From a virus (lineage: Duplodnaviria > Caudoviricetes), in the IMG/VR virus record IMGVR_UViG_3300037043_000091, positions 7,526-71,525 of that record: a stretch of 64,000 bases of DNA; one strand, 5' to 3'. The position numbers and the translations under genes were made by a program. The notes below the pieces were generated by a model. It saw only the letters and a list, made by a program, of their open reading frames with translations, was not told the DNA's origin and searched no databases. Of this stretch, positions 22,201 through 60,663 are shown in pieces; positions within the stretch are counted from its first letter, which is position 1, and the number at the start of each line of letters is the position of its first letter.

Positions 22201-25200
22201 TCCGGCTCCGCCTGCATCTTCTCCCAAACCCGGTCAGTCAGCTTGTCAATCTCACCCGGGGTCCGTTCCCGGTTAAGGACCCGTCCCAGGATTTCCCTCA
22301 GTCCGCTTTTATCTCTTACGAAACTGCCCCGGTTCTCCAGAAGGTGACCGCGTTCCCGGGCCATGTCTTCAATGGTCTGAAGGACTCCATCGGCCCCGGC
22401 CCCCATGTCGCCTTGATACTGCTCCGTGGCGGAAACAAGAAAAGCGCCAGGAGGTCCCGCCTTGGGGTATTCCAGGTGGGGATTATAATCCTCGCCGGCG
22501 GCCTCAAAAATATTGGCGTAAGCCTCGCGTCCACCGGAGGCCCCGTCTTCAATCAGGTCTTCGATGGCTTGGGCTCGGTCAAAAAACATTCCCCCCTCGC
22601 CGTCGTCTTTCCAGTAATCCTCCCTCCCCAACGGGTCACCGTTAAAGTCCAGAGAAATCAGGTCTTCAGCGCCAAGAGCCTGGATCAGTTGGGTGTCGGT
22701 AAACTGCGCTATTTTTTGCTCCGGGTCCCTGGTGAAGCGCCAAACCGCTTCGTGTTCGCCCCCCGCACCGGCCCTGCCGTACCCGATAACCTGGTCACCG
22801 TCCATAATATGGTAAAGGTCATTGGCAAGGAATTTAGCGGTATAGTTTTTCGCATAATCTGGAATCGCCGGCTTCACCTGGGGACCGGCCTCCGGTTTCT
22901 GCCAGTCGATCCGGTCAGAACCCCAGCGCTTGAACTGCTGCTGGCCCGTGGTCCAGGCGACCCCCTTGTAGTTCCGCTCGGCGGCGTACCGGAGCAGCCA
23001 CTTTATCACGTACTCATGCCAGGTGTTCGGCATCGGGTGCTGGGGAACCCCACTAAGCCCGTCCTTGAAGTACATTTCAGCGCCACGGACGGCATCGTCT
23101 TTTGTTTCATATAATCCGCCGGGGCCGGACTCCAAATCTTCCCAGCCTTCCTCCCCCGGGAACAAAACCGAGTAGTGCGTAGCGTCAGCGTCGGGAACCT
23201 CGACCCAATCCCCTTCGGTTTTGGGGTGAGTTATGCGGTAGCCGCTTTGATCGTTCTGTGTTCTCTCTATCAGTTCGTTGCGGGTAACAATTCGGTTCTG
23301 GACAGCGGGGGGCAAATCATCAAACTCTTGCCCCGGCTGGTATTCCGCGTCGTTCTGGTCGACCAGTTCATTGATCCGGTCTTCGATCTGCTGCTCTATG
23401 AAACGGGATGCTTCCTTGTGGCTGTTAAATTCACCCAGCTTGGCGGGTTCTTGTCCTGCCATTAAGCCTTCAACCTTAAACTTCCCGCCTTCTTCGGGCT
23501 CAACATACCGATACCCTTGCAACTTCAGTTCACCGGCGTCCAGCCTCTCCTGAATACTCCTGGCATATCCCTGGTGGCGCCCAGCCGCCGCCCAATCCGA
23601 CTGAAAATCGCCATTGACCACCAGCCAGATGTTGCCGGCCCGGTCCTTATAGAGGGCGAACCGAACATGGGCCACCGGATTCTGCTCGTCCCAATGGCTG
23701 TGTTTGTAACCGGCTCCTTTGGGGAGTGTGTATGCCTTATTGATAGCGATGTTCTGCTGGCTTCTTATGTCGTCAAGGTCGTCACGGTACACCTGGGCCT
23801 CCCTGGTTAACCGCGTCCTTTTAATCACGCCCTCCCAATTATAGTTTGGGTCCCAGACCTTCAGGGTCTTGAGCCACATTTCGCTGACGCCCTTGGCGGT
23901 GGACATCAATTCCCTGATAGCGATGGGGCCGTTCCCCTCGTTTTGTGGGGCGGGTGCTTCCGGCTCGGGGATCGTGGGGTTCCCCATGCCGTCGAGTTCT
24001 ACTGCCTTTTCCCATGCTTCGTGTTCTTTTTTCCACGCTTTCAGGGCGGCCACGTTTTTTTCGTGAATCAGGTCGTCCACATGGGCCATGGCTTCCTTGA
24101 TGGTAGGCCCGGCCTCCTTGGCCTGACTTTCCAGGTTTTCAATCCTGATGCGGAGGCTGTCTATCTTTGGACGGTATCGTGCAGCGGCAGCTTCCCGCGC
24201 TGCCATGCCTTCAGGCGACGGGCGCTGGGGGTCAAGCGTCATCACCACTTCGGTGTAAGTATCAGGAATGGCCCCGGGGAGTTGATATCGGGCATATTTG
24301 GTGGCGGACGGGCGCCTCCTGGTCATTAACTCTCTGGCCTGCGCCCGGTAATCGTCGATCACACCCCGCGCTTCGGCAAGAGCCAACCAGTTGAAATCTG
24401 GAGCCTGGAACCGTGCTTCTTCAATCCGCGAGTCATGGTCTGGGTGGCTACCATCAATCATTGCCGCCATGGCATTGGCCCGGTCCACCTGGGAGTAGCC
24501 GGCTGCATGGAGGGCCGCGTGGCCATTGGCAATCAGTTCCGATAAAAACGCCTCACGCTCGTCGGCCTTCTGGGTGAGTTCGTTTATGCGGAACATTTCC
24601 GTGGGACCCGGAGGTGCGTTCTGGTCCCCGCCCTTAAAAACATCCGTAATATGCGGCTCACTCGTTCCCAAATACTCGAGTATTTGTCGCTTCGTGATGT
24701 GCGCCGGCTTCGGTTTGCCTGTGATGGCAAGCCCCTGTTTGTCCACGGCCTCCAGCTTCTTGGCTTGGGCCTTGATCCAGGGAATCACCCCGGACAGGAG
24801 CAGTTCGTCCTTCTTGTACTCGCCATGGGAGAAGATCGGCTCACCCTTCTTGTTCTTGCCGATCTCCTTCATGCCGGCCCAATTTTCCAGCAAGTCGATC
24901 GTTTCTTGCGGCGTCCCGCGGCCGGGGAGTTTTGCTTCGATGTGGCGCTGCATCTTGGAGAAGAAGGGCGCTGCAATAGTGCCAGCCGTCCCCTCGGCAT
25001 TGTCGTAATCCAGCCCTCCGTGCTTCTTGGCATAGGCGGCCGCTTCCGCCTCAGTTTTGAACCGCCTTATTACCTTGCCGTCCCTGGGGTTAAAGACCTC
25101 CCAGGGAGTTTTTTCAACGGGATTCAGGTCGAAGAAGTAATCTTCTCCCTCATCCCTAATGGGTTCGTACTCGCCTTCGTTTTGGATCGCCTCTCTTTCA

Positions 25201-42351: not shown

Positions 42352-42697
42352 CTACGGCGCCAGAGTCCCGGGTGACCGTGCCTTTCACAATCACCATCCC
42401 CTCAACAAAACTTTGGCGAAGCCCGTGAGGGTCGGTAAGCACCAGGTCCCAATAGGCCGTATCATCTTTGAGCAGGATGGTCTGGGTATCCGTCAGGCTG
42501 AGAACGATGCTTCCAATGAGGGGCGTGATGTCCACATGGAAGGCAACGATCAGGGCGTCCGTATCTTGCCCTATCCGTATTTCAGCTTTGCCGGTATATC
42601 CGGTCAGGTCCATCGCCTCCCCCTGGGTTTTGAAATAGAGCGTTTTGGAGAAGTCGCGGTCCCGGTAAATGGTTAGGTCCAGGGATGCCGGGTTCAT
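42332..42697 (-). CDS. Ig-like tail/baseplate-upper-type protein
   Basis: LTIYRD.DF..DLTGY..AEIR..WDLVL..EG.V. Confidence 0.75.
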   Translation of the reverse strand: MNPASLDLTIYRDRDFSKTLYFKTQGEAMDLTGYTGKAEIRIGQDTDALIVAFHVDITPLIGSIVLSLTDTQTILLKDDTAYWDLVLTDPHGLRQSFVEGMVIVKGTVTRDSGAVGGMEVG

Positions 42698-43941
42698 GTC
42701 AATGCCCCCAATTCCAAGATTGAACTCAGAGCGGGGTCACCCCCGTTGCGCTGTTGACCGGACATGGTGATGATGATCTGCGGGATACCTTCCTTTACCC
42801 GGAAAAGCCCTCCCCCTTTTTCCCGGACTGACATCCGTAGCCGGCTCTCGGTAAGGTGGACCAGGTGGCCGGTCTGAGTCCCCACAACAACCCCGTGGGG
42901 GCCAACCCAGACCGGAGAAGGGACTTGGGAGAGGCGCCGGCTCATTTCGTAGCCTCCGCCGACTACGGCGCCGGGCATTTCGGCTATCACCAAAGTCCCC
43001 TGGACGGCCCCGTCCCCGATGTCCTTCAGGACCATCTTGGCAGGCTCCGTGCCATCAAGAAACCAGGTGTGGGACTTGGAATTGACGAACAGGCCGTCCT
43101 TGACCGCGGCCACCATGAAGACTTCTTCCGGGAAGGGCTTAAAATTCTGGGACCGGAACCAGCCATATTGAAAGGGGTCGCTGTAAATCAGGTTTTTGCC
43201 CTTGCAGGCCCAAATGCGTCCAAAAGCCTGAACAAAGTGGCTAATCCCGCTTGGCGGCTTAACGTCGAAAGTCGGTAGCCAGGTGATCTTGGGGGCCAGG
43301 CCCGTCACCATCCCGGAGGCCACGGTGGCCAGGCAGAGGTCTTTTCCGTTGGGGTGCGTGATCCAGCATTGGGCGTCGGTTGCCATGCCCGATAACTGAA
43401 TCCCCTGGGTTCCGCCTTCCCAGGAAACGGTAGTCAGGGGTCCGTTGCCACTTAGCTGGACCCCATCAGACCGCGTATAACAGAGAGAGTAAGTCCCTGG
43501 GGGCATATCACCGGCTACTATGGCGGCGACCGGAGCCGGCGGGAGGGATAGCCCCCAGGGGCTTAACGCGCCTCCCAGGATGTCGTAGGTGTACGCCCAG
43601 GTGGGCGTGGCCATGTAGATCAGATCGTCGAGTTCGCCGTAGCACACGGGGGCTTTAGGGCCTGACACGGCCCCAAGGGACACCGCCGCATCGCCATCAA
43701 TCCGGTAGAGGATTCCGTTTGCAACCACCAGCATGATGCTTCCAGACCAGAGAGAGTGCGCCCCTGGCAGAGAGATTTTGAGGACGTATCCTTCTCTCTG
43801 GACAAGTTTTCCTCCATCCGTCACCTCCACGTTCAAGGCGATCTTGGGCGTAATCCGCTTGGCGTCGTCCAAAAGGATGCCCGGGGCCTGCGGCAAATTG
43901 TTCATCCCCCTGAAACCAATGGCCCTGATGGGTTTAGGCAT
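42694..43941 (-). CDS. tail nozzle / stabilisation protein
   Basis: GF.GMNN..ALNV..G.L..R.G; position after adaptor. Confidence 0.7.
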   Translation of the reverse strand: MPKPIRAIGFRGMNNLPQAPGILLDDAKRITPKIALNVEVTDGGKLVQREGYVLKISLPGAHSLWSGSIMLVVANGILYRIDGDAAVSLGAVSGPKAPVCYGELDDLIYMATPTWAYTYDILGGALSPWGLSLPPAPVAAIVAGDMPPGTYSLCYTRSDGVQLSGNGPLTTVSWEGGTQGIQLSGMATDAQCWITHPNGKDLCLATVASGMVTGLAPKITWLPTFDVKPPSGISHFVQAFGRIWACKGKNLIYSDPFQYGWFRSQNFKPFPEEVFMVAAVKDGLFVNSKSHTWFLDGTEPAKMVLKDIGDGAVQGTLVIAEMPGAVVGGGYEMSRRLSQVPSPVWVGPHGVVVGTQTGHLVHLTESRLRMSVREKGGGLFRVKEGIPQIIITMSGQQRNGGDPALSSILELGALT

Positions 43942-44617
43942 ACCTGGCTCCTACCGGGTCACGGCCTCCGTGGCGACGTGATCCGCCCTGAATCTTGTTC
44001 AGGTATTGAACGAGGCCTGGGCCTTCCGTGGGGCTCCCCCGCAAGCCGGCGACCAGCCTTCCCTGCCAATACTGGAGCCCCTTGGGGTCAAAGTTCTCCA
44101 CCTGGTCCTGAAGGTGTTCATAGGCCTTAACGGCGACCTTGGGGATTATCACCCGGGCGTGGTAAGGCTCGGGGATGCAGGTGGGAACGTCCGTGGCCCT
44201 GGTGAGCGTCGTGGGCTTCTTGTAGTACCAGAGCCGGATCGTTTCGTCGGCCATGGGATAGGTAGCAAGCTGGGTTCCCGATACCGCCACATGGGTCACA
44301 TGGTCGGCGGTTTCATCGTGGTCAATGTCCAGCCCGTCCAGGGCCTCTATGGTCCTGACGACCTTGATCTCGTTGTAGTCTTCGTCGGCAGCCCGAAACA
44401 GTTTCTTCTGGAAATCTGCCGGCAAGGCGAAAAACCAGGTGTCGGTGGTGACAGGGAAGTCTGTGGGGGAAATGGTTTTGAGGTCCGGCAGTTCAAAGGC
44501 GGCTGCCAGTTCGAGAACGGCAAGGTTTATCCAGGAGGCGTAGTAAGACTGTAAACTCCGGTCTTGGACCTGTAAGGCCAGAGCCTTTTCCAGTTCACCC
44601 AAATTCATCGCCGTCAC
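43934..44617 (-). CDS. head-tail adaptor (tubular protein A-like)
   Basis: WIN.A..LP.DF..YP..YY.KP.L..D.P..IPE..H. Confidence 0.75.
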   Translation of the reverse strand: MTAMNLGELEKALALQVQDRSLQSYYASWINLAVLELAAAFELPDLKTISPTDFPVTTDTWFFALPADFQKKLFRAADEDYNEIKVVRTIEALDGLDIDHDETADHVTHVAVSGTQLATYPMADETIRLWYYKKPTTLTRATDVPTCIPEPYHARVIIPKVAVKAYEHLQDQVENFDPKGLQYWQGRLVAGLRGSPTEGPGLVQYLNKIQGGSRRHGGRDPVGARYA

Positions 44618-44868: not shown

Positions 44869-45447
44869 TTACCCCACGGCGGCGGCCGGTTGCTCCGGTG
44901 CGGCTTTGGTGGTGGTTTTTGGGGCAGACTTCTTCGACTTGCTCTTGCTCTTGCTCCTGGCCGCGGCCTTGGGTGCGGAGGGTTTGTCTGGCTCTGCCCC
45001 CTTGGGCGCCGGCCTCGACTGCGGTGCAGCGGCTCCGGTTGCCTGGCGCTGACGGTAATTGTGCAGCCCGATGATTGCAGCCGACAGGACCGGGCCCGGG
45101 GAGAAGAAGTTGTAGAGGTCGGCTTCTTCCGGGATCGTCCCGTCAGCAAAGACCGGGGTGTTGTCAGCCCGGAACCCAATGGGCCGGGGCGGGTTTTCTT
45201 CCTGTTCGTGGCGGTGACGGAACCATTCCAGGGCTTCCTCCAGGTCCTCCTGATTGGGACCGAAGGCCGCCACCAGTTGGGACTCATCCTGGACCGGCAA
45301 CCCGTTGATATGCTGGTATGCGCCGTTGGGGGTCTTTACGATGTGAAAGCCCCCGTCCATCCAGGAGGTCGTATCCACCTTCACAATGCCATGATCCCGG
45401 GTGTAGATTTCCTGCCCGGCTTCTTCTTGAACCACAGGTATAGCCAT
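44869..45447 (-). CDS. hypothetical protein with K/S/A/P-rich tail
   Basis: AGGGA RBS; low-complexity C-terminus. Confidence 0.65.
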   Translation of the reverse strand: MAIPVVQEEAGQEIYTRDHGIVKVDTTSWMDGGFHIVKTPNGAYQHINGLPVQDESQLVAAFGPNQEDLEEALEWFRHRHEQEENPPRPIGFRADNTPVFADGTIPEEADLYNFFSPGPVLSAAIIGLHNYRQRQATGAAAPQSRPAPKGAEPDKPSAPKAAARSKSKSKSKKSAPKTTTKAAPEQPAAAVG

Positions 45448-45459
45448 AGCTGTTTCCCT

Positions 45460-46740
45460 TTAATCGGATTCGGCGGACCAGATTGAGTCTGGACCGGTCT
45501 TAACTCTGTCGGCCCCGAAGTATTCATAGACGGCCCGTTTCACCCCGGGGTATAGGGGGTCGTTGAAGTCATGGCCGCAAATCAGCTTCTTGGTCCGGGG
45601 AGCCCAAGCCTTGATGTCGGCCAGGCAAGCCTCATAGGAGTGGTCGCCGTCGATGAATACCATGTCCACTTCGGGAGGAACCACGTCCCCAGCCGCGGCT
45701 TCAAGGCTGGTTTTCTTGATAACGGTGAGGTGGGGGAAATGCCCCACGTTCTTCAGGAACTCAGGCATGAAGTCGTCGCCGTCCTTCAGGCCCAGGTTGG
45801 GGCTGACGTAGTTCTTCCAGTCGCCGGAGAAGACGAAGGGATCGACGGCGTAGACCTTCCCCTTGTCGCCGTTGCATCCCGAACAGAGAGCATAGGTGCT
45901 GCGGCCCAGGAAGTTGCCGATGCCCACCACGGACCCCATTGCTTTAGACTTCTCGTAGAGCCATTCCAGTTCCGGCCGGCTCATCCAGCCCTTGATTCTC
46001 TCGGCCTTGTCCACGGGAGTTTCCGGGAAGTCGTACCCCATGATCTCCACAAGTTTCCAGGCCCGGAGAACCTTCCTCAGTTCGATCACCTTTTGGGCAG
46101 TCGGGAAAAGGTAGTGGTGATAGAAAAACCCGCCGCCTTCCTTGAACCCGGCAGCCTCGAAAATTTCCTTCATCAACTTGAACTTGAGCCCGTACTTGGC
46201 GATGTTCCGGGACAAGATGTAGTCGTCCACCAGATGATCCGGGGTAATGAGCCCGGTCAACCGCTCGGGAACCGTGGGAAAGATGTTGCCCACGGCCTCT
46301 TTCGGGGTCAAGTCGGTAGGCGGCTTCCACAAGTCGATGCAGAGGTTGCTGGCGACAGCCAGCCAGTTACCCGAGCCGATGTTGCGCCCGTCCCTCTGGA
46401 AATAGCGGTCGGTTCTCCACCTCACCAGGGAGAAGTCCTTCCCAAAATGCGCCACGGTGTCCTTTGGAAGAAGCTGGGTCATATCCGGACAGTCCGGGTG
46501 GATCAAGGTATCGGAGTCGATATAGATGTTCCAATCGTTCTCCATCTGTTGGCCCAACTCATAAATCTGTAGTTTCTCAAAGGTGATCGGCCATTCAGGG
46601 AATTTCCTCTCCCGGATGATGTGAAAATCGGCCCCAATCTTGTGGGCATACGCCTCGATAAGCGGATAAGTGAGTTCCGTGATCTCGGGCGCATACCCAT
46701 TCAGATTGAGAGTAAAGACCGTTTTTTTGTCGGTACGCAT
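45460..46740 (-). CDS. fusion of GT-A-like glycosyltransferase and class I SAM methyltransferase (Methyltransf_24-like)
   Basis: YA.KIGADF..EKL.I..YIDSDTLI (DxD); GWMS..EL.WL..G.S..VDMVFIDGDHSYE..D..W..GHDF..PGV. Confidence 0.85.
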   Translation of the reverse strand: MRTDKKTVFTLNLNGYAPEITELTYPLIEAYAHKIGADFHIIRERKFPEWPITFEKLQIYELGQQMENDWNIYIDSDTLIHPDCPDMTQLLPKDTVAHFGKDFSLVRWRTDRYFQRDGRNIGSGNWLAVASNLCIDLWKPPTDLTPKEAVGNIFPTVPERLTGLITPDHLVDDYILSRNIAKYGLKFKLMKEIFEAAGFKEGGGFFYHHYLFPTAQKVIELRKVLRAWKLVEIMGYDFPETPVDKAERIKGWMSRPELEWLYEKSKAMGSVVGIGNFLGRSTYALCSGCNGDKGKVYAVDPFVFSGDWKNYVSPNLGLKDGDDFMPEFLKNVGHFPHLTVIKKTSLEAAAGDVVPPEVDMVFIDGDHSYEACLADIKAWAPRTKKLICGHDFNDPLYPGVKRAVYEYFGADRVKTGPDSIWSAESD

Positions 46741-46743
46741 AAA

Positions 46744-47484
46744 TTAGCGTCCTACCATTTCCATGTAGAGGGTGGTGGCCGCCGGGGCGACCGTGTTATC
46801 CATTTCAGCCAAAGCCGCTTCAGCCACGGCGCCGCCGCCGGTGACGGTGTGCGTCAGGTTCGCCAGGTTCGACGGAGCGTCGCCCGTGAAAACCGGAGCG
46901 TTATGCGTCAGGTTGGCGATGTTGGCCGGGGCCGGCACGGCTGCTTCCTGAACGCCGCCTTTGGTGGCAGCGTCTGCGCCAAGGATGGTGACGTTGGCCG
47001 CCTGGTTGGCCACCAGGGCGGTGTTGGCGCCGTTGACCCCGACGGTCAGGGTTTCGTCACCCTGGCTGTTGGCAGCGATCATGAGATCGTGGGTGTGGTT
47101 CGCCGGGGCCGGGACAGCGATGTCCACATGGTTTGCCGGGGCCGCCACGTTACCCGTGGGGGTCGGCAGGGTGATGTTGGCATGGTTGGCCACGGTGATG
47201 GCATCCCGGGCAGCGCCCAGGAAAATCCGTAGCTTGTGGTTGGCCCGGTCAAAGGAGTAGATATAGCCATTGCCGGGCTGTTCGATGTACGCCCGTTTAA
47301 TGGCGAAGTGAAAACCGAATTTCCCAATGGCCGGCATGGGGATTCCCAGGTTGGAATATGTCAGAACCCCGTTCCCAAACTGCACCGTGGGGAAGGTTCT
47401 GATCCCAATGCGTCCGTCCGGGGAGCGGTCAATGTCCTCGGGGTTCAAAGTTACGGTCACGTGAGCAGCGGTGATTGCAGCCAT
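46744..47484 (-). CDS. head decoration-like protein with Asn/Ala/Thr repeat insertion
   Basis: Downstream of capsid genes; PANH and ANLTH repeats. Confidence 0.7.
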   Translation of the reverse strand: MAAITAAHVTVTLNPEDIDRSPDGRIGIRTFPTVQFGNGVLTYSNLGIPMPAIGKFGFHFAIKRAYIEQPGNGYIYSFDRANHKLRIFLGAARDAITVANHANITLPTPTGNVAAPANHVDIAVPAPANHTHDLMIAANSQGDETLTVGVNGANTALVANQAANVTILGADAATKGGVQEAAVPAPANIANLTHNAPVFTGDAPSNLANLTHTVTGGGAVAEAALAEMDNTVAPAATTLYMEMVGR

Positions 47485-47541: not shown

Positions 47542-48303
47542 TTAGGTTGCCTCTACCCACAGGGGCTGACCAGCAAGATTCTCGGCGCGGTTCTGCACGA
47601 TGATGATGGGCTGGTATGCACCGGTTTCGTGCACGTCGCCATTGACCATCGTGGTGACGACCATGGACAGGACCTCGCCGGCCTTGAAGCCATTCGGGGG
47701 CGCTGCCGACGGGGAAGTGTCCCCGAGGGTGATGGGAACCCGCTTCATCATCAGATACCCAGCCGCAAGCGACCAGATGGTGGTCAGCGGGGTAACGCCG
47801 TCGGTGTCTTTGGCTGCCAGGCCGATGGTGTCCAGGGCCAGCTTGTCGTCGATGGTGCAAGTGAAGGCGTTGTCGCCAGCACCATTCAGAGCCACCGTCG
47901 CCAAACTCGCCGCTGCGCTGTAATTCACACCGCGGTTCACGATCTCCACCGTGGCCACAACACCGCCAGCGGTGACGGTCGCAACCCGGACGATCCCGCC
48001 GGATGCGCCGGTCTGGGTCAGACTCAAAAGATCGCCCACAGCATACCCGGTGCCGCCGGCGCCACCAACAACCGCCGTCTGGACGCATTTGGTGTGGCGG
48101 TACAGGGTAAGGACGCCGGGGGTCACGACATCGTGGACATCGAAAGCCGTGGTTACCCGGTAGCCCCAATAAAGCACCGATCCCGGCAATTCCATGGTTC
48201 TGGACAATGCCACGGTTGTCGCCGCCGCATTGATGTTGACGGCAGCGGCCAGGGAAGCATCCCCGATTGCCGCATTAAGTGCGTGAAGTTCTTCTCCATA
48301 CAT
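47542..48303 (-). CDS. capsid cement/decoration protein (paralogue 2)
   Basis: MYGEEL..N.A..DA.L shared with 48324..49040. Confidence 0.75.
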   Translation of the reverse strand: MYGEELHALNAAIGDASLAAAVNINAAATTVALSRTMELPGSVLYWGYRVTTAFDVHDVVTPGVLTLYRHTKCVQTAVVGGAGGTGYAVGDLLSLTQTGASGGIVRVATVTAGGVVATVEIVNRGVNYSAAASLATVALNGAGDNAFTCTIDDKLALDTIGLAAKDTDGVTPLTTIWSLAAGYLMMKRVPITLGDTSPSAAPPNGFKAGEVLSMVVTTMVNGDVHETGAYQPIIIVQNRAENLAGQPLWVEAT

Positions 48304-48323
48304 GGTTTATCCCTCCAGGCCGG

Positions 48324-49040
48324 TTAAGTGGCCTCAACCCAGAGTCCCTGGGCTGCAAAGTTCTCGCCCCGGTTCTGAGTAATTAAGATCGGGAAAAAGT
48401 CCCCGGCAATCCCGACCCCGCCCGTCGCTGCGGTGGAGATCAGAATTTCCACTTCCTCCCCGGCGGCATAACTCGCAGGGGGCGGGGGAGTGGGGGAAAT
48501 GTCGGCATCCAGAAGGTTCGGACACCGCTTCATATACTGGTATCCGGCGATGGCACCATCCGGCAGAAGCATGGTATCCAAAACCACGAGGTCGCTGACG
48601 GTCACGGTCAGGTTGTTGTCGCCGGCGCCGGTTTGGGCTACCGTCGCCCGGGTCCCGGCAGCATAGTAGACGCCCGGATTGAGGATTTTTACCGCCGTGA
48701 CGACCCCGGCAGGGGCCGCAGTCACTTCAAGGAGGCCCAGGCCGTTGGAAGCGGCGTCTGTGACCAGAACCTTGTCGCCTACGGCATACCCGGCTCCGCC
48801 GACAGCTACCACCGCGGACTTGATGACCTTAGATTTCCGCTGCAGGGTCAAAACCCCCTGGGCGGTCAGGGTGGCATAGTCAAAGGTCACGGAAACCCGG
48901 AAGCCCCAATAAACAATGCCCCCGGGACGCTCCATGGTCTTGGCCAGCTTAACGCCGGTGACTGCCTCCAGGGCTATTTCGGCAGCCAGGGCCGCATCTG
49001 CAACGGCAGAGTTGATGATGAAAAGTTCTTCGCCATACAT
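48324..49040 (-). CDS. capsid cement/decoration protein (paralogue 1)
   Basis: Directly after MCP; shared N-terminus and QNR.EN.A.Q.LWVEAT C-terminus. Confidence 0.75.
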   Translation of the reverse strand: MYGEELFIINSAVADAALAAEIALEAVTGVKLAKTMERPGGIVYWGFRVSVTFDYATLTAQGVLTLQRKSKVIKSAVVAVGGAGYAVGDKVLVTDAASNGLGLLEVTAAPAGVVTAVKILNPGVYYAAGTRATVAQTGAGDNNLTVTVSDLVVLDTMLLPDGAIAGYQYMKRCPNLLDADISPTPPPPASYAAGEEVEILISTAATGGVGIAGDFFPILITQNRGENFAAQGLWVEAT

Positions 49041-49077: not shown

Positions 49078-50061
49078 TTACAGGCTGATGAGTTTTACCA
49101 TCTTGGCCTTCCCGTCCGACGCGCTATCCCAGACCGGACCGAAGGCATAGATGCCCCACCAGGCCATCGCCATCATGGTGGCGAACCGGCCGCCGAAGTT
49201 CGGATTCAGGCGGAGGTGCGGGGTCACGGCCTCGATCCGGGCGACGGCCTCGTCACCGAAGATCACGGCTTCACCGAAGACCGTGGAGGTGCCGGACAGG
49301 TTGGCAAAAGCCATGGCCCGGTTGATCTCCACGAACTTGATCTTGTTGACTTCGCACATTTCGCCCTTATAGAGCATCCCGCCTTCACGCATGTGCTGCT
49401 GCCACTTGATGACATTGGAATCCAGGAGCAGATTCTCAATGTTCGTGTTGCAGGACAGGCAGACGTAATGCTCCCCGCCGCCTTTGGACCCCTTATAGAA
49501 GGGGGCGTGGATGGTATCACGCATATAGGCGGAGATTTTCTTGACGTGATCGGCGGTCAAGGCGGCCGTGGCGACGGCGCCGGCCGCACCGGTGACGCTC
49601 CAGACACCGCCGGTCACGCTGGTGGGGCTGAAGCAGATTTTAACGTCCGAGGACATGAACCCGTCCCGGGCCGCTTCGGTGTCCAGGGACCGCTCCAGGG
49701 ACGAGGCCAACTCCTTCCGCATGATGGGGTCGGGCTTGAACTTGGAGAGTTCCTGCAGCTTGGCGGAGAACTGGAGGCCTTCGCCATGCTCGGTCAGGGT
49801 CAGGGACCGCTTCCCGAAGCTGAGCATCCGCATCGGAATCTGGCCTTCTTCCTGGAGCGACGCGTTCTGGGCGTCGGGCAGGCGGTTGACGTGGAACAGG
49901 TTCACGGTTTCACCGGCGTTCTTTTTGAAGCCGAAGCCGTGATCGTGGGTGTATTGGACGACCTTACATTCGCCCAGGGCTACTTCGAGAATCTGGTCGG
50001 AAATCTGGTGGTTTGCCAGGATTCCCGCACCGATGTCTGTCCAAAGGTGAGCATCAGCCAT
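49078..50061 (-). CDS. major capsid protein (N4-gp56/P22-like HK97 fold)
   Basis: G.TV..L.EG..L.EHG..S.KL..L..D..A..GE..EVN..KFVE; follows scaffold. Confidence 0.88.
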   Translation of the reverse strand: MADAHLWTDIGAGILANHQISDQILEVALGECKVVQYTHDHGFGFKKNAGETVNLFHVNRLPDAQNASLQEEGQIPMRMLSFGKRSLTLTEHGEGLQFSAKLQELSKFKPDPIMRKELASSLERSLDTEAARDGFMSSDVKICFSPTSVTGGVWSVTGAAGAVATAALTADHVKKISAYMRDTIHAPFYKGSKGGGEHYVCLSCNTNIENLLLDSNVIKWQQHMREGGMLYKGEMCEVNKIKFVEINRAMAFANLSGTSTVFGEAVIFGDEAVARIEAVTPHLRLNPNFGGRFATMMAMAWWGIYAFGPVWDSASDGKAKMVKLISL

Positions 50062-51162: not shown

Positions 51163-51549
51163 TTATTCCTCAGTCGGTATCCCTGGCGGGGCGACCTTGG
51201 TTTCATCCGTTAAGCTGTTCAAAACGATCCCAAACGATTGCCGCCGGATTTTCTGGGCAACCGCGGGGGCAAGGCTCAACTTCATGTTGTAGGCGGCAGC
51301 CTGCTTGAGGATGCCGACGCAAAACCCGTCTTGGTTCATGAGTTCCACAAGGCGCTGCTCCAGCAACCCTGCCATGATGGGGAGGACGGCAGGCAAGTCC
51401 TGACCCAAAGCGCTTGCCTCCGCAACAGCCTTTTGTTCCCTCAGGTCGAGTTCTTGCTGACGTTCCTCCTGGGTCTTCCTTTGGCGGGGCCGACCCGTAA
51501 CGATGTCCAGGTCGATTCCGCTTACGCCCATGGGGCCGTGACGACTCAT
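51163..51549 (-). CDS. hypothetical protein
   Basis: ATGA overlap with portal stop. Confidence 0.65.
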   Translation of the reverse strand: MSRHGPMGVSGIDLDIVTGRPRQRKTQEERQQELDLREQKAVAEASALGQDLPAVLPIMAGLLEQRLVELMNQDGFCVGILKQAAAYNMKLSLAPAVAQKIRRQSFGIVLNSLTDETKVAPPGIPTEE

Positions 51550-53834
51550 TTGTTCACCTTTGGCTTGGGTTTATTCGCCGGAGCCGCCGGCTTCGGCGGG
51601 TTTGCGGCTGTCTTGGCCTTGGCCCGGACCAACTCCCCCTGGGCCTTCTCGGTGTCCACCTTCTGGCTCAAAAGTTCCGGATGTGCTGCCGCCTCCGCCT
51701 GGGCCCGGGTGAGTTCGCCCTTGGCCGCTTCGGTATCGACCTTCTGCCGCGCCAGGTCGATTTCGTGGGGGATCACGGCCCTGATCCGTTCGGCTTCGGC
51801 CAGTTCAACTTGTGTCGGCCCCTGTTCCCGGACCTCCGTCCCGGCGGCTGCGTCGGCCTGGGCGTCCGCCAAAGCGGCTTCGGCGGGGGCCTTGAGGGCA
51901 ACGGCTTCAGCTTGGGCCTGGGCCAGGGCGGCTTTGGCGCTGTGGAGTTCGGCCTGGGCCGCCAGGGTGTTGGCTTTCGCCATTTTTTCTTCGGCCTCGG
52001 CTTGCAGCTTCGCCGCCTCTGCGGCCTTGCGCTCGGCGTCGGCCTGGACCTGGGCCGCCTGGGCCGCTTCCTGGGCCTGCATGGAGCCGATCTTCTTGTC
52101 CTGCTGTTCCTGTTGGGCGGTGTCAATTTCAATGGCTTTTTCAGGATCGACGGAGAACTTGGAGTCGGTCAACCTGGTCAGCCGGACAATTTCGTTCAGA
52201 TAGCCACCTGGCTTCAGGTAGGGGAGGAAAATCTGCCCCAGGCCATTCGGATCGAACAGGGGCATTATCAGGCTGGCCATCTGTTGCAGCTTCTCATGCT
52301 CTTTCATCAGAGCGGTAATCCCGGCCACATGGAATCGGCCGGTGCTTAGCTGCGGGAGTTCCAGGCCGGTGGGGAAGTCATCGGAAACGGGACGCCGGTA
52401 TTCGTCGGCCACTTCTGGCCCCATGATAGCGACCAACTCGTCATAGGTCATGTTGATGCAGATGGTTTCGTAGCCGGCGATGATTGCGGCCAGGGCTCCG
52501 TCCTCCAGGTTCTTTCCCATGGACCCTACGACGGTTGAACTCTGCTCCAGGTTTTGGGCTGCCTCCCGGGCGGTCACCTCTGCCCGGTATCCCGGCGCTC
52601 CCATGGTGGAGTAATCAAGGAGGCCTCCATCCTGGTGGCGCTGGTCGTAGAAGTTGAGCATGGCGATCAGTTCGTTGGCCTGGGACTTGAGATCAACCGC
52701 CCGGATCACCTGCTGCCCCTGCTGTGACCCGTAGGTCGGAAAGACCTTGCCGGGGTAAACGTCGGTGTCCGACTGGTCCACCAGGGAGGAAATGTCCACC
52801 TCCAGCATGGGGTTCACGGCCCAATTCAGGTGATCCGCATGGAGGCTCATCATGTTGCACATCAGATACCAGAGGGACCGGATGCCGTGAATGAGTCCCC
52901 GGCCATCGAAACGGAGCATATGCGGGAGCGCTGAGAACCCGATTCCCGGCCACCTGAGGGTGGGGTAGGGGCTTGGCTTGGGTTCGCTGATGACTCTCCC
53001 GCCGGCGCCCGTGAAGGTTGCGTTGGGCAGGAGGGTTTCACCCTTGGGACTCAGGATCGTCCCCCAGAACTCAAGGACCTGGAGCGACTTCTGAAAGGCC
53101 GACTTGCTGAAAACCATGCCCTTGCGCCGGGCCAGTTCTTCAGAGGTGAGGTCCGGGGTCCGGCTGTACCAGTTGCTTCCGGGCCCGATGTCGATGATAT
53201 TCTTGAACCGCCCTTCCTTCTCCCAATCCCTCAGGACGTTGTAGGGCATGAACTCCTGGTGAATCCAGTACATCCCCGACTGCGGCTGCCGGCTCACGGC
53301 GTCCGGGTCCCGGTGAATCTTCCAGGGCTCCACCAGGATATACCGGAGCCCCTTCCCCGGGGGGTAGACGGGGATCATTTCCATGCTCTGGCCCACGGCC
53401 AGGGACATTCCCACGGCGTCCACAAACTGAATCGGGAAGTTGGCGTAGTTCCGGGATAGCTGGACCCGCATCAGCTTTTCTACAAAGCTGGCTGCTTTTT
53501 GCGAATCCTCGTTCTCGACAGACAAGAACTCAACATCGAAAGCCTTGCGGACGATGGACATACCGAACTGGACCAGTTTATAGGGCTTCGGGTAGGTAAT
53601 CCGGCTCTGCCAGAGTTCCTTGAAGTTGAAGTTCTGCGGTTCTTCTTCGTTGTAGACCCGCCAGCACTCATTCTGCTGAAGCCGAATTTCCCGCGTGGAG
53701 TCCACAGAGGTCTTGACGCAATCGTCGAGGAATCGGACGTAGTGGGACTCGTCTTCAGCGACGTAAGCCCTGGCGGCCTCTGTCCTCTCAGCCAGTTCCT
53801 TTTGGTCTATCTGCTCTGCGGCCACGGGCGTCAT
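51546..53834 (-). CDS. portal protein (P22-like, with C-terminal coiled-coil barrel)
   Basis: 762 aa after terminase; W.S.I.YP..V.PW.I..DP; long A/E/Q/K tail with QKVDTE repeats. Confidence 0.88.
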   Translation of the reverse strand: MTPVAAEQIDQKELAERTEAARAYVAEDESHYVRFLDDCVKTSVDSTREIRLQQNECWRVYNEEEPQNFNFKELWQSRITYPKPYKLVQFGMSIVRKAFDVEFLSVENEDSQKAASFVEKLMRVQLSRNYANFPIQFVDAVGMSLAVGQSMEMIPVYPPGKGLRYILVEPWKIHRDPDAVSRQPQSGMYWIHQEFMPYNVLRDWEKEGRFKNIIDIGPGSNWYSRTPDLTSEELARRKGMVFSKSAFQKSLQVLEFWGTILSPKGETLLPNATFTGAGGRVISEPKPSPYPTLRWPGIGFSALPHMLRFDGRGLIHGIRSLWYLMCNMMSLHADHLNWAVNPMLEVDISSLVDQSDTDVYPGKVFPTYGSQQGQQVIRAVDLKSQANELIAMLNFYDQRHQDGGLLDYSTMGAPGYRAEVTAREAAQNLEQSSTVVGSMGKNLEDGALAAIIAGYETICINMTYDELVAIMGPEVADEYRRPVSDDFPTGLELPQLSTGRFHVAGITALMKEHEKLQQMASLIMPLFDPNGLGQIFLPYLKPGGYLNEIVRLTRLTDSKFSVDPEKAIEIDTAQQEQQDKKIGSMQAQEAAQAAQVQADAERKAAEAAKLQAEAEEKMAKANTLAAQAELHSAKAALAQAQAEAVALKAPAEAALADAQADAAAGTEVREQGPTQVELAEAERIRAVIPHEIDLARQKVDTEAAKGELTRAQAEAAAHPELLSQKVDTEKAQGELVRAKAKTAANPPKPAAPANKPKPKVNK

Positions 53835-59577: not shown

Positions 59578-59882
59578 CCCCTCATCCTCTCGAATTTCAG
59601 GACCGGCATCAGGGGGAACTTCTCCAGGTAGCTTCGGTCCTCCAGGTATGAAACCAGCGCATCCCTCATATTCCGGGTGAGGTTCTTCATCAAAAGGTCA
59701 AAGACGCTCTGGACCTCATCCAGGCGCAGGATCACGTCTTGGGTGAACTCCTGGCAGGTGGCGCCTGTGCCGCGGCCTAACTGCACCTTCAGCCGCACCG
59801 CCGCACAGCCAGGCATATACATCGAGGGCGTGTGCCTCGGCCCTTCCTGATCCATAACCTCTGCTTCAAGGATGATCTTCAT
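59574..59882 (-). CDS. hypothetical protein
   Basis: ATGA couplings on both ends. Confidence 0.6.
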   Translation of the reverse strand: MKIILEAEVMDQEGPRHTPSMYMPGCAAVRLKVQLGRGTGATCQEFTQDVILRLDEVQSVFDLLMKNLTRNMRDALVSYLEDRSYLEKFPLMPVLKFERMRG

Positions 59883-60469
59883 TTGGCCTCCCTTTCCATT
59901 TGCTCAAATTCCATCATGTAAGGCAGACAGTCCGGGTGTCGGGGGATGACCGCTTTTACCATGGCCGCTTCGTCCAGCATCTTCCCCTTTTCTTGCGTGA
60001 CAAAGCAGAACACCGCTATCTGGTTGGCCGCCCCCACCGGGTCCGCCAGGATGTCCTCGAACCGCAACTTCAGAATCCTATGGGAATATTCCCGCATGAC
60101 GCCGTTGGCCCGGGACCGGTCCCGCATGAACGACGCCGCCAGCTTGCTCACCGCAATACTCTCCTTGGCCGGATCAACAGCGGCTCCACAGGCTACCATG
60201 AACTTCACCATGGACTTCGCCTGCTCTACCGGGTTGCGGTCTATCCATATCCAACGGTATGGCAGGCCAGCCGGGGGCCGGTTAATGTGGGGGTCCAAGA
60301 TTTTGACGGCCCCGCCCATAGCTGCCCAGGCCTCCGGGTTCACCGCTCTCCCTTTGGGGATTTCATAGGACGGATATTCCGAGCCGGGCGTCGGCATCCC
60401 GCCGGCGGCCAACATCTGCATCACCAGGCTGGAGCCACACCGACCAAAGCCTGCTACGATGGTAATCAT
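59879..60469 (-). CDS. sulfotransferase-family protein
   Basis: IVAGFGRCGSSLVMQML..GG (5'-PSB-like) and IWIDRNP.E...S (3'-PB-like). Confidence 0.75.
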   Translation of the reverse strand: MITIVAGFGRCGSSLVMQMLAAGGMPTPGSEYPSYEIPKGRAVNPEAWAAMGGAVKILDPHINRPPAGLPYRWIWIDRNPVEQAKSMVKFMVACGAAVDPAKESIAVSKLAASFMRDRSRANGVMREYSHRILKLRFEDILADPVGAANQIAVFCFVTQEKGKMLDEAAMVKAVIPRHPDCLPYMMEFEQMEREAK

Positions 60470-60663
60470 CAGCAACTCCCCGGGGCCACTCGCAGCCCCA
60501 ATCCGGTTTCGCCGCTCTCCGGCATCCTGACCCATGTGTCGGTCAACAGGCATATCATGGCCGAAACCTCTTGGTCCCAGAGGAAATTTTGAAAACTCTC
60601 CGGGAGGTCAGGGTGAAGGGACGGAACCACCAGAAAACCCTCCTTCTGCACTTTCTCTGCCAT
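60469..60663 (-). CDS. hypothetical protein
   Basis: TAATG and TGATG couplings. Confidence 0.5.
   Translation of the reverse strand: MAEKVQKEGFLVVPSLHPDLPESFQNFLWDQEVSAMICLLTDTWVRMPESGETGLGLRVAPGSC

What the first reader, a model, noticed from the sequence alone, without database searches (positions are those of the whole stretch)
45460..46740. Glycosyltransferase-methyltransferase fusion inside the head operon: candidate virion glycan writer
Seen: a GT-A-type domain (IDSD) fused to a class I MTase, 3 nt after a decoration gene and before the head-tail adaptor. The motif I region reads VGIGNFLGRS where VEIG is usual. Known: chlorovirus PBCV-1 A064R is a GT-MTase fusion that builds and methylates capsid glycans, and some mycobacteriophages glycosylate virions using GT and methyltransferase genes. 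Inference: a single-polypeptide glycosylate-and-cap system in a podophage of a probably Gram-negative host, which I have not seen described.
Basis: partly seen in the sequence, partly recalled or inferred. Interest (0 to 1): 0.8.

Follow-up and report, generated by a model that had tools for sequence, protein, structure and literature searches.

The report
Phage sugar-adding and sugar-methylating fusion enzyme
A complete 71.5-kb uncultured phage carries, inside its head-gene operon, one protein that joins a sugar-adding enzyme to a sugar-methylating enzyme; it belongs to a large phage-only family that sits among virion genes, so it probably decorates a virion protein with a methylated sugar, though no experiment yet shows this.

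Summary
ORF 45460-46740 (-) encodes a 426-aa, two-domain protein. Residues 1-240 form a confidently modelled GT-A glycosyltransferase. Its best solved match is chlorovirus PBCV-1 A64R domain 1, followed by GT34 and GT8 enzymes. The DSD motif and His208 are invariant in 115 of 115 relatives. Residues about 246-426 are a Methyltransf_24 methyltransferase, closest to the sugar O-methyltransferases MeT1 and CalS11. Motif I has Gly where 92 of 115 relatives have Glu, but every other conserved residue is kept and the domain is under purifying selection.

The GT domain defines a phage-specific family (415 IMG/VR contigs) with no cultured member. It occurs alone, fused to the methyltransferase in either order, split into adjacent genes, or joined to further GTs. 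In at least six unrelated lineages it lies within virion structural modules.

The phage has no other detected GT2 or GT1 glycosyltransferase, no detected sugar-nucleotide epimerase or nucleotidyltransferase, and no hydroxymethyl-pyrimidine pathway. This argues against DNA as the target.

Virion-protein glycosylation is therefore the best reading, at about 55%, but it is inferred, not shown. The neighbouring insert-bearing 246-aa protein is only a candidate acceptor. The scan has met this family before on other DNA. I class it as a new variant of a known kind.

The parts
45460..46740 (-). Gene for the 426-aa GT-A / Methyltransf_24 fusion protein (P0001)
   Evidence: ORF and translation. 914 homologues, with the full-length architecture kept down to 43% identity. 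AF2 model pLDDT 92.6. dN/dS 0.13-0.18.
46021..46740 (-). GT-A glycosyltransferase domain (aa 1-240)
   Evidence: AF2 pLDDT 96.5. Foldseek top hit is 2p73/2p6w, PBCV-1 A64R-D1, E 2e-7. VIA-align: 2p6w Z 13.8, XXT1 (GT34) Z 12.8, LgtC (GT8) Z 12.3. 2 of 40 relatives hit Pfam GT8 at 3.9e-6. The nearest Atlas clusters are 98-100% viral.
46510..46518 (-). DxD motif (D75-S76-D77), predicted ligand for the divalent cation and nucleotide-sugar
   Evidence: Invariant in 115 of 115 relatives. Aligns to the DxD region of UGGT and glycogenin in weak profile hits.
45463..46005 (-). Methyltransf_24 class I SAM methyltransferase domain (aa 246-426)
   Evidence: PF13578, E 2.8e-13. Sequence hit to MeT1 6g7d, E 1e-5. 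Foldseek top hits are MeT1 at 1e-10, then CalS11. D300, D364, H367 and C388-G-H-D391 are kept in at least 96% of relatives.
45898..45930 (-). Motif I, VVGIGNFLGRS, with Gly273 where Glu is usual
   Evidence: E in 92 of 115 relatives, A in 13, G in 7. The non-E forms are confined to the nearest relatives.
46744..47484 (-). Upstream 246-aa protein: conserved core of about 110-125 aa plus a variable Ala/Asn/Thr/Pro/His-rich insert. Candidate acceptor (inference).
   Evidence: Translation and alignment A3. Five A-N-x-T sites, shuffle p about 5e-5. Insert-less orthologues and paralogues exist. An Atlas structural match of a 107-aa viral protein covers the core. No Pfam or PHROG hit.
44869..45447 (-). 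Downstream 192-aa protein with a basic Ala/Pro/Lys/Ser-rich tail. Conserved neighbour, function unknown.
   Evidence: Translation. Present in lineage members with and without the GT.
49078..50061 (-). Major head protein (context)
   Evidence: phrog_1357, E 1.3e-11.
47542..49040 (-). Two tandem paralogous decoration-like genes, 48324-49040 and 47542-48303 (context)
   Evidence: Weak hits to phrog_9703 'head decoration' and phrog_6005. The two are 45% identical to each other.
42694..44617 (-). SU10-type head-tail adaptor (43934-44617) and head closure Hc3 (42694-43941) (context)
   Evidence: PF24175, E 1.6e-15. phrog_8040, E 5e-37.
51546..53834 (-). Portal protein (context)
   Evidence: phrog_332 and phrog_1216.

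Best explanation
The gene encodes a soluble, cytoplasmic, bifunctional glycan-writing enzyme that is made together with the head proteins.

Proposed mechanism:
1. The N-terminal GT-A domain binds a common host nucleotide-sugar through a divalent cation. The predicted ligands are D75, D77 and probably H208.
2. It transfers the sugar to an acceptor. By fold analogy with GT8, GT34 and A64R-D1, the anomeric configuration is probably retained.
3. The C-terminal Methyltransf_24 domain uses SAM to O-methylate that sugar, which caps it.

The most likely acceptor is a virion structural protein, modified in the cytoplasm before or during assembly. The best single candidate is the variable Ala/Asn/Thr-rich insert of the adjacent 246-aa protein.

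Shown: the two folds, the conserved catalytic-type residues, purifying selection, operon position, family-wide linkage of the GT and MTase domains, and family-wide location in structural modules.

Inferred: enzyme activity, donor sugar, stereochemistry, and above all the acceptor.
For: Folds and motifs:
- GT-A fold and DxD motif.
- Methyltransf_24 domain, nearest to the sugar O-methyltransferases MeT1 and CalS11. MeT1 methylates oligomannosides (PMC9883506).

The GT and MTase domains are functionally linked. They occur:
- fused N-to-C in 36 sampled loci;
- fused in the reverse order (P0127, P0128);
- as adjacent, overlapping genes (for example L022, L035, L040, L062);
- in the order C then N (L042, L051).

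Operon position: the gene starts 3 nt after the upstream gene and ends 12 nt before the next one. Promoter-like and terminator-like sites are no more frequent than chance.

Location of the gene in each lineage:
- Window lineage: between the MCP and decoration-like genes and the adaptor, in 14 loci.
- A siphovirus lineage: after the adaptor, Neck1 and a putative tail tube gene, and before the chaperones and tape measure.
- Two further lineages: 3-4 genes after the MCP.
- Others: directly after a collagen-like tail fibre (L046, L068), directly after an internal virion protein (L057), or directly before a Gly_rich_2 fibre protein in 8 loci.

Other family members are fused to GT8 and GT9 domains, or sit beside GT2, epimerase and radical-SAM genes. 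These look like glycan assembly lines.

Own complete genome:
- No detected GT2 or GT1 glycosyltransferase, NDP-sugar epimerase or nucleotidyltransferase. The enzyme must therefore use a host sugar-nucleotide, and, if no unrecognised GT is present, attach the first sugar itself.
- No ThyS or C5-MTase match. The Tet_JBP search also found nothing, but its controls did not ring.
- ThyS is absent from 28 of 28 related phage records.

Candidate acceptor:
- All 10 distinct GT-bearing lineage members have an insert-bearing 246-aa-type neighbour.
- 9 of 15 GT-less members have the insert-less form of 111-125 aa.
- Genes adjacent to the cassette are modestly richer in N-x-S/T: 1.05 against 0.66 per 100 aa, p = 0.0014.

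Precedents: A064R builds and methylates the PBCV-1 capsid glycan (PMC9614988). Mycobacteriophages glycosylate capsid and tail tube subunits (summarised in PMC12619734).
Against: - No experimental data exist. There is no cultured phage with this GT domain. Among 50,697 phage records there is only a 35%-identity partial match, in an unannotated marine virus.
- Gene position is circumstantial evidence.
- The GT domain is 50-60% identical across phages binned with very different host phyla. This is hard to reconcile with fast-evolving, unrelated protein acceptors unless it recognises a short motif or a sugar.
- The putative neighbour 'acceptors' in different lineages are unrelated proteins.
- L134 is 99% complete, has no GT, and still has a short HxH-type insert in the 246-aa homologue. 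The insert therefore does not depend on the GT.
- The GT/insert association is confounded by shared ancestry.
- The A-N-x-T sites overlap repeat units and HxH-like motifs, so their excess may come from repetition.
- Motif I lacks the usual Glu.
- A64R is also the top solved match of DNA-glycan-extending phage GTs.
Confidence: 0.55

Rival explanations
1. The enzyme modifies a host envelope glycan or its cytoplasmic precursor (LPS core, O-antigen, capsule or another lipid-linked intermediate). The purpose would be to mask receptors, block superinfection, or stop progeny from sticking to debris.
For: - The nearest cellular folds include LPS and polysaccharide enzymes: LgtC (GT8) Z 12.3 and WbbM Z 11.5.
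- Some family members are fused to a GT9 heptosyltransferase-like domain (P0158, P0212).
- Other family members neighbour GT2 and NDP-sugar epimerase genes.
- Related viral records are flagged as proviruses.
Against: - The gene is translationally coupled inside the late head operon, not in a lysogenic-conversion position.
- No membrane segment or flippase partner was seen.
- The family occurs in phages binned with hosts that have very different envelopes (CPR, Actinomycetota, Chloroflexota, Acidobacteriota, Pseudomonadota), yet the GT domain stays 50-60% identical.
- Structural-module placement recurs in at least six lineages.
Confidence: 0.15
2. The enzyme acts on a free sugar, oligosaccharide or small molecule, or glycosylates itself as glycogenin does. 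The product would be a methylated saccharide that is not attached to a virion protein.
For: - MeT1 and CalS11, the closest methyltransferases, act on free oligomannosides and on a TDP-sugar.
- Glycogenin and UGGT give the weak sequence-profile hits at the DxD region.
- The high conservation of the GT domain across hosts fits a universal small acceptor.
Against: - There is no obvious benefit of such a product to a phage.
- It does not explain the consistent placement beside fibre, tube, decoration and capsid genes.
Confidence: 0.12
3. The enzyme extends or caps a glycan on phage DNA (base hypermodification) to evade restriction.
For: - Phage GT-A enzymes GT14I and GT43I, which add secondary sugars on 5hmC-linked glycans, are GT8-like and also have PBCV-1 A64R as their top PDB match (bioRxiv 10.1101/2023.12.21.572611).
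- PHROG 2675, which matches the C-terminal domain, is labelled 'DNA methyltransferase'.
Against: - The complete 71.5-kb genome has no thymidylate-synthase/hydroxymethylase family gene and no C5 cytosine methyltransferase.
- No Tet/JBP candidate was found either, but that search had no working control.
- 0 of 28 related phage records have ThyS and 3 of 28 have a C5-MTase.
- No other detected GT could attach a first sugar to a base.
- Methyltransf_24 is an O-methyltransferase-type family, not a DNA methyltransferase family.
- The gene sits in the head operon, not in a replication or nucleotide-metabolism module.
Confidence: 0.06
4. Only the glycosyltransferase half is active. In this sub-lineage the methyltransferase domain has lost SAM binding (Glu to Gly in motif I) and serves as a structural or substrate-binding module.
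For: Gly273 replaces the Glu found in 92 of 115 relatives. The neighbouring positions also changed, from S-W-K to N-F-L.
Against: - D300, D364, H367 and the C-G-H-D motif are all retained.
- dN/dS of the MTase domain is 0.18 against L001 and 0.14-0.17 against other Gly/Ala-type relatives. This is similar to the GT domain.
- The Gly/Ala forms persist over a sub-clade spanning 68-85% identity.
Confidence: 0.12

Closest known systems
Chlorovirus PBCV-1 A064R (GT-A rhamnosyltransferase D1, second rhamnosyltransferase D2, methyltransferase D3)
   Same: - It is a virus-encoded, soluble, multi-domain enzyme that joins a DxD GT-A domain to a class I SAM methyltransferase.
- A64R-D1 is the best solved structural match of the N-terminal domain (Foldseek E 2e-7, VIA-align Z 13.8).
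- A064R builds and 2-O-methylates the end of the capsid glycan (PMC9614988).
   Different: - Sequence identity is only about 12%.
- There is no counterpart of the second GT domain D2 (426 aa against 638 aa).
- A064R extends an existing N-glycan, whereas here no other detected GT is present in the genome.
- The host is a bacterium, not an alga.
- Homology of the methyltransferase domains was not tested.
CAZy GT8 / GT34 / GT24 retaining GT-A enzymes (LgtC, glycogenin, XXT1, UGGT catalytic domain)
   Same: - Same GT-A fold (Z 10-13).
- DxD in the same place.
- A conserved late His (H208) that could be the third metal ligand.
- A few relatives reach Pfam GT8 or GT34.
   Different: - The window protein matches no Pfam GT family.
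- The family is almost exclusively viral.
Mycobacterium hassiacum MeT1 (6g7d/6g80) and CalS11, Methyltransf_24/TylF-type sugar O-methyltransferases
   Same: - Best sequence and fold matches of the C-terminal domain.
- Both methylate sugar hydroxyls (PMC9883506).
   Different: - About 23-25% identity.
- Motif I Glu is replaced by Gly.
- Here the domain is fused to a GT and encoded by a phage.
Mycobacteriophage virion glycosylation (Freeman et al. 2023, as summarised in PMC12619734 and PMC12582341)
   Same: Phage-encoded glycosyltransferases that glycosylate capsid and tail-tube subunits. This is the only experimentally shown case of tailed-phage virion glycosylation that I found cited.
   Different: - Different hosts.
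- The primary paper was not held, so the enzymes could not be compared.
- No actinophage matched the GT domain in the phage collection.
Phage DNA sugar-hypermodification GTs (Pyle et al., bioRxiv 10.1101/2023.12.21.572611)
   Same: Some are GT8-like GT-A enzymes whose best PDB match is also A64R.
   Different: Those lie next to C5-MT/5mYOX or ThyS genes. None of these was found in this genome or, with rare exceptions, in 28 relatives.

Membership tests
GT-A fold glycosyltransferases | Single Rossmann-like alpha/beta/alpha nucleotide-sugar-binding fold | tested here: met
   AF2 pLDDT 96.5. The top 20 VIA-align matches are all GT-A glycosyltransferases (Z 10.3-13.8); nucleotidyltransferases of the same fold appear lower in the list.
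GT-A fold glycosyltransferases | DxD metal / nucleotide-sugar binding motif after the central strand | tested here: met
   D75-S-D77 is invariant in 115 of 115 relatives. It aligns with the DxD of UGGT and glycogenin.
Pfam Glyco_transf_8 (PF01501) / CAZy GT8 | Match to the family profile above its gathering score | tested here: not met
   No Pfam GT hit for the window protein. Only 2 of 40 relatives hit PF01501, best E 3.9e-6. No CAZy/dbCAN tool was available.
Pfam Glyco_transf_8 (PF01501) / CAZy GT8 | Retaining mechanism with a DxD...His metal triad | not testable with these tools
   H208 is invariant, but its 3D position relative to DxD could not be read out. Stereochemistry needs an assay.
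PBCV-1 A064R-type capsid-glycan enzymes | D1-like GT-A domain | tested here: met
   2p6w/2p73 is the top hit by two methods, at 12-13% identity.
PBCV-1 A064R-type capsid-glycan enzymes | Three-domain architecture with a second, D2-type GT | tested here: not met
   Only two domains in 426 aa. The linker of about aa 228-250 is too short for a third domain.
PBCV-1 A064R-type capsid-glycan enzymes | Acts on the capsid protein glycan | not testable with these tools
   Needs glycoproteomics.
Pfam Methyltransf_24 (PF13578), class I SAM methyltransferase | Profile match above the gathering score | tested here: met
   51.1 bits against a cut-off of 26.3.
Pfam Methyltransf_24 (PF13578), class I SAM methyltransferase | Motif I acidic residue (h-h-E/D-h-G-x-x-x-G) | tested here: not met
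   G273. E in 92 of 115 relatives. The two glycines G275 and G279 are kept.
Pfam Methyltransf_24 (PF13578), class I SAM methyltransferase | Motif II acidic residue and downstream Asp/His catalytic or metal residues | tested here: met
   D300, D364, H367 and H390-D391 are conserved in at least 96% of relatives and present here.
Phage DNA glycan hypermodification clusters | GT encoded next to, or in the same genome as, ThyS-type hydroxymethylase or C5-MT plus 5mYOX | tested here: not met
   None in the complete genome (the Tet_JBP search had no positive control). ThyS in 0 of 28 and C5-MT in 3 of 28 related records.
Phage virion glycosylation systems (mycobacteriophage type) | Glycan demonstrably attached to virion subunits | not testable with these tools
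   No isolate exists. Only gene context is available.

The most novel reading that the evidence does not exclude
One polypeptide both starts and finishes a protein glycan. In this reading the GT-A domain is a cytoplasmic, sequon-directed protein glycosyltransferase. It attaches the first sugar directly to the A-N-x-T sites (to Asn, or to the Thr) in the exposed insert of the neighbouring head protein, and the fused methyltransferase caps that sugar. This would be a new class of protein-initiating GT-A enzyme. It would be unrelated to the GT41 (GT-B) NGT/HMW1C enzymes, and it would be widespread in uncultured phages.
Probability: 0.1. Interest if true: 0.85.

Novelty: new variant of a known kind. 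Interest (0 to 1): 0.55.

Why it matters
Self-encoded virion glycosylation has been shown experimentally only for chloroviruses and other giant viruses and for some mycobacteriophages.

This gene belongs to a phage-specific glycosyltransferase family:
- 695 cluster representatives at 50% identity;
- 415 IMG/VR contigs;
- no cultured member.

The family is repeatedly wired to methyltransferases, radical-SAM enzymes, epimerases and extra GTs, and it is embedded next to capsid, tube and fibre genes in unrelated phage lineages.

If these cassettes really write methylated glycans on virions, glycan coats would be a common and overlooked feature of environmental phages. Consequences would follow for adsorption, stability, and immune or defence recognition. 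There would also be a compact two-domain enzyme of interest for glyco-engineering.

The window offers a minimal test case: one GT, one MTase, no other detected sugar genes, and a candidate acceptor next door.

Tried and rejected
I took context from the search for related loci instead.
- Pfam and PHROGs gave nothing for the N-terminal domain or for the two flanking genes.
- A profile search of the 246-aa family against PDB sequences gave only a chance-level NHL-repeat hit.
- The phage collection holds no real relative of the fusion protein or of the phage. Portal and MCP match only at 24% identity to Pelagibacter, Roseobacter and Vibrio phages.
- The Tet_JBP search of the genome found nothing, but its controls did not ring, so it is uninformative.
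- The Freeman et al. 2023 primary paper was not held.
- Two literature searches for phage virion or fibre glycosylation by encoded GTs returned nothing specific to this family.
- I considered the A-N-x-T sites as evidence for N-glycosylation sequons. I kept this only as a lead, because the sites lie in internal repeats that overlap HxH-like motifs.
- I considered that the Glu-to-Gly change marks a dead methyltransferase. I rated this unlikely because of purifying selection and the retained residues.
- I did not run complex prediction. An enzyme-substrate pair is a poor case for it, and I do not claim stable binding.
- A promoter/terminator scan showed nothing above chance.
Full report
**What is there**

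The minus-strand ORF 45460-46740 encodes a 426-aa protein, P0001. It starts 3 nt after the TAA of the upstream gene (46744-47484) and ends 12 nt before the next gene (44869-45447). Promoter-like and terminator-like sites in the region are no more frequent than in shuffled sequence. The gene therefore appears to be co-transcribed with the head genes.

The window is part of a complete 71,525-bp virus record with direct terminal repeats. The order on the minus strand is:
- portal (51546-53834)
- a 128-aa gene and a 346-aa gene
- major head protein (49078-50061)
- two paralogous decoration-like genes (48324-49040 and 47542-48303, 45% identical)
- the 246-aa gene
- the target gene
- a 192-aa gene
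- SU10-type adaptor (43934-44617)
- head closure Hc3 (42694-43941)

**The two domains**

*C-terminal domain.* Pfam finds only Methyltransf_24, at aa 273-385, E 2.8e-13. Its best solved relatives are sugar O-methyltransferases:
- M. hassiacum MeT1 (sequence E 1e-5; Foldseek 1e-10);
- CalS11, a TDP-rhamnose 3'-O-methyltransferase.

MeT1 methylates the 1-OH of oligomannosides (PMC9883506). The PHROG label 'DNA methyltransferase' for this domain is probably a misnomer.

*N-terminal domain.* Residues 1-240 have no significant family hit. They are the most conserved part of the protein. Folded alone they give pLDDT 96.5. Two independent structure searches both put PBCV-1 A64R domain 1 first:
- Foldseek E 2e-7;
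- VIA-align Z 13.8, rmsd 3.6 over 183 residues.

Next come XXT1 (GT34, Z 12.8), LgtC (GT8, Z 12.3), WbbM, ColGalT1 and UGGT. Weak profile hits to PDB sequences fall on the DxD region of UGGT, GlyE and glycogenin. Two of 40 relatives reach Pfam GT8 at 3.9e-6. D75, D77 and H208 are invariant in 115 of 115 full-length relatives.

**Motif I**

The window reads VVGIGNFLGRS. At the third position, 92 of 115 relatives have Glu, 13 Ala and 7 Gly. The non-Glu forms are confined almost entirely to the closest relatives (P0001-P0023). All other conserved residues of the domain are present: D300, D364, H367 and C388-G-H-D391. dN/dS of the domain is 0.18 against the L001 orthologue, compared with 0.13 for the GT domain. 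It is 0.14-0.17 against other Gly/Ala-type relatives. I read this as a lineage-specific variant of an active enzyme, not decay. Only an assay can settle it.

**The family**

The fused architecture is kept in hundreds of metagenomic proteins down to 43% identity. Counts for the GT domain:
- 415 IMG/VR contigs encode a relative.
- 47 loci lie in MAGs of many phyla.
- An exhaustive search finds 695 representatives at E <= 1e-3 and 121 at E <= 1e-30.
- The nearest Atlas clusters are 98-100% viral.
- No cultured phage has it. The only match among 50,697 records is a 35%-identity partial hit in an unannotated marine virus.

The domain occurs in several architectures:
- alone (77 ORFs in my sample);
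- fused N-to-C with the MTase (36 ORFs);
- fused in the reverse order (P0127, P0128);
- split into adjacent, often overlapping genes, in either order;
- followed by a radical-SAM-like gene (25 loci) and an NDP-sugar epimerase;
- in tandem arrays of two to four copies in CPR-binned contigs;
- fused to canonical GT8 and GT9 domains;
- interrupted by LAGLIDADG inteins.

Fusion in both orders, together with fission, is classic evidence that the GT and the MTase work on the same pathway.

**Where the family sits**

- All 14 close relatives keep the head-module synteny of the window.
- In a siphovirus lineage the fusion lies after the adaptor, Neck1 and a roughly 250-aa protein that is probably the tail tube. 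It lies before the chaperones and tape measure.
- In two other lineages it is 3-4 genes after the major head protein.
- In others it directly follows a collagen-like tail fibre or an internal virion protein, or directly precedes a glycine-rich fibre protein.

This recurrent placement is the main support for a virion target. It is circumstantial.

**Against DNA as target**

Pyle et al. (bioRxiv 10.1101/2023.12.21.572611) report that two GT8-like phage enzymes that extend glycans on 5hmC also have A64R as their best PDB match. The fold match by itself therefore cannot point to a capsid target. Those enzymes, however, lie with C5-MT/5mYOX or ThyS genes.
- The complete genome here has no ThyS-family gene and no C5-MTase.
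- No Tet/JBP candidate was found, but that search had no working control.
- Among 28 related phage records, ten of them at least 90% complete, ThyS occurs in 0 and C5-MTase in 3.

The genome also lacks any match to GT2, GT1, NDP-sugar epimerase or nucleotidyltransferase families. The enzyme must use a host nucleotide-sugar. Unless the genome holds a GT that these searches missed, it must also put on the first sugar.

**Candidate acceptor**

The upstream 246-aa protein has a conserved core of about 110-125 aa split by a variable Ala/Asn/Thr/Pro/His-rich insert. The insert carries five A-N-x-T sites. Shuffling gives a mean of 0.5, p about 5e-5. The sites lie in internal repeats and overlap HxH-like motifs.

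Within the lineage:
- all 10 distinct GT-bearing members have an insert-bearing form (166-258 aa);
- 9 of 15 GT-less members have the bare core (111-125 aa).

The comparison is confounded by ancestry. One 99%-complete GT-less genome, L134, still has a short insert.

Across about 80 dereplicated loci, genes adjacent to the cassette have 1.05 N-x-S/T per 100 aa, against 0.66 for genes further away (p = 0.0014). The gene calls for this test were crude, and fibre-like composition contributes. I keep this protein as a candidate acceptor at about 30%.

**Verdict**

- The domain-level interpretation and the A064R analogy are supported.
- The virion target is the best-supported reading (about 0.55) but is unproven.
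- The claim of rarity is not supported. This is one member of a large, uncharacterised, phage-specific family, and the scan has already met it beside fibre genes on other DNA.
- It is a new variant of a known kind, namely virus-encoded virion glycan writers.

Noticed in passing
window 47542-48303 and 48324-49040 (-): Two tandem paralogous genes (45% identical; both start MYGEEL and end LWVEAT) with weak PHROG 'head decoration' and 'virion structural' hits. Most relatives have a single copy at this position.
   Followed up: partly
window 59879-60553 (-): 224-aa protein with a Pfam Sulfotransfer_3 match (E 4.2e-8), in the region beyond the terminase gene. It could act on the same glycan, but no link was tested.
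   Followed up: no
window 16260-28007 (-): 3915-aa ORF with no Pfam or PHROG match at all. It is presumably a giant virion or ejection protein.
   Followed up: no
L022, L030, L033, L035, L038, L040, L043, L046, L049, L057, L062 and others (25 loci): A conserved gene of about 315 aa with a weak radical-SAM match (E 2.4e-4) lies directly after the stand-alone GT or after the GT|MTase pair, often followed by an NDP-sugar epimerase. This looks like a three- or four-gene sugar-modification cassette.
   Followed up: partly
P0137 (853 aa), P0166 (593 aa): Homologues of the GT domain are interrupted by LAGLIDADG / intein-splicing domains. These are inteins inside a phage glycosyltransferase.
   Followed up: no
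L080, L081, L082, L108 (MAG contigs binned as Saccharibacteria, Zambryskiibacteriota, Buchananbacteria): Tandem arrays of two to four GT-domain genes, with one copy fused to the methyltransferase, plus extra stand-alone methyltransferases and a GT2 gene.
   Followed up: partly
L001:9303-9662, L010:10101-10475: An insert-less paralogue (119-124 aa) of the 246-aa protein lies downstream of the GT-MTase in some relatives (directly after it in L001, one gene further on in L010-L012). In those phages the enzyme gene lies between an insert-bearing copy and a bare copy.
   Followed up: partly
L098 (141.9-kb contig of a deltaproteobacterial MAG), L099 (Desulfarculales strain contig), L134 and L135 (IMG/VR proviruses): Relatives of this phage's head module occur in Desulfobacterota-type genomes and as proviruses. 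This is a clue to a Gram-negative host and a temperate lifestyle. L098 has only a stand-alone methyltransferase upstream of the portal gene.
   Followed up: no
PHROG 2675: The family is annotated 'DNA methyltransferase', but the matching region is a Methyltransf_24 / MeT1-like O-methyltransferase domain. The label is likely misleading.
   Followed up: partly
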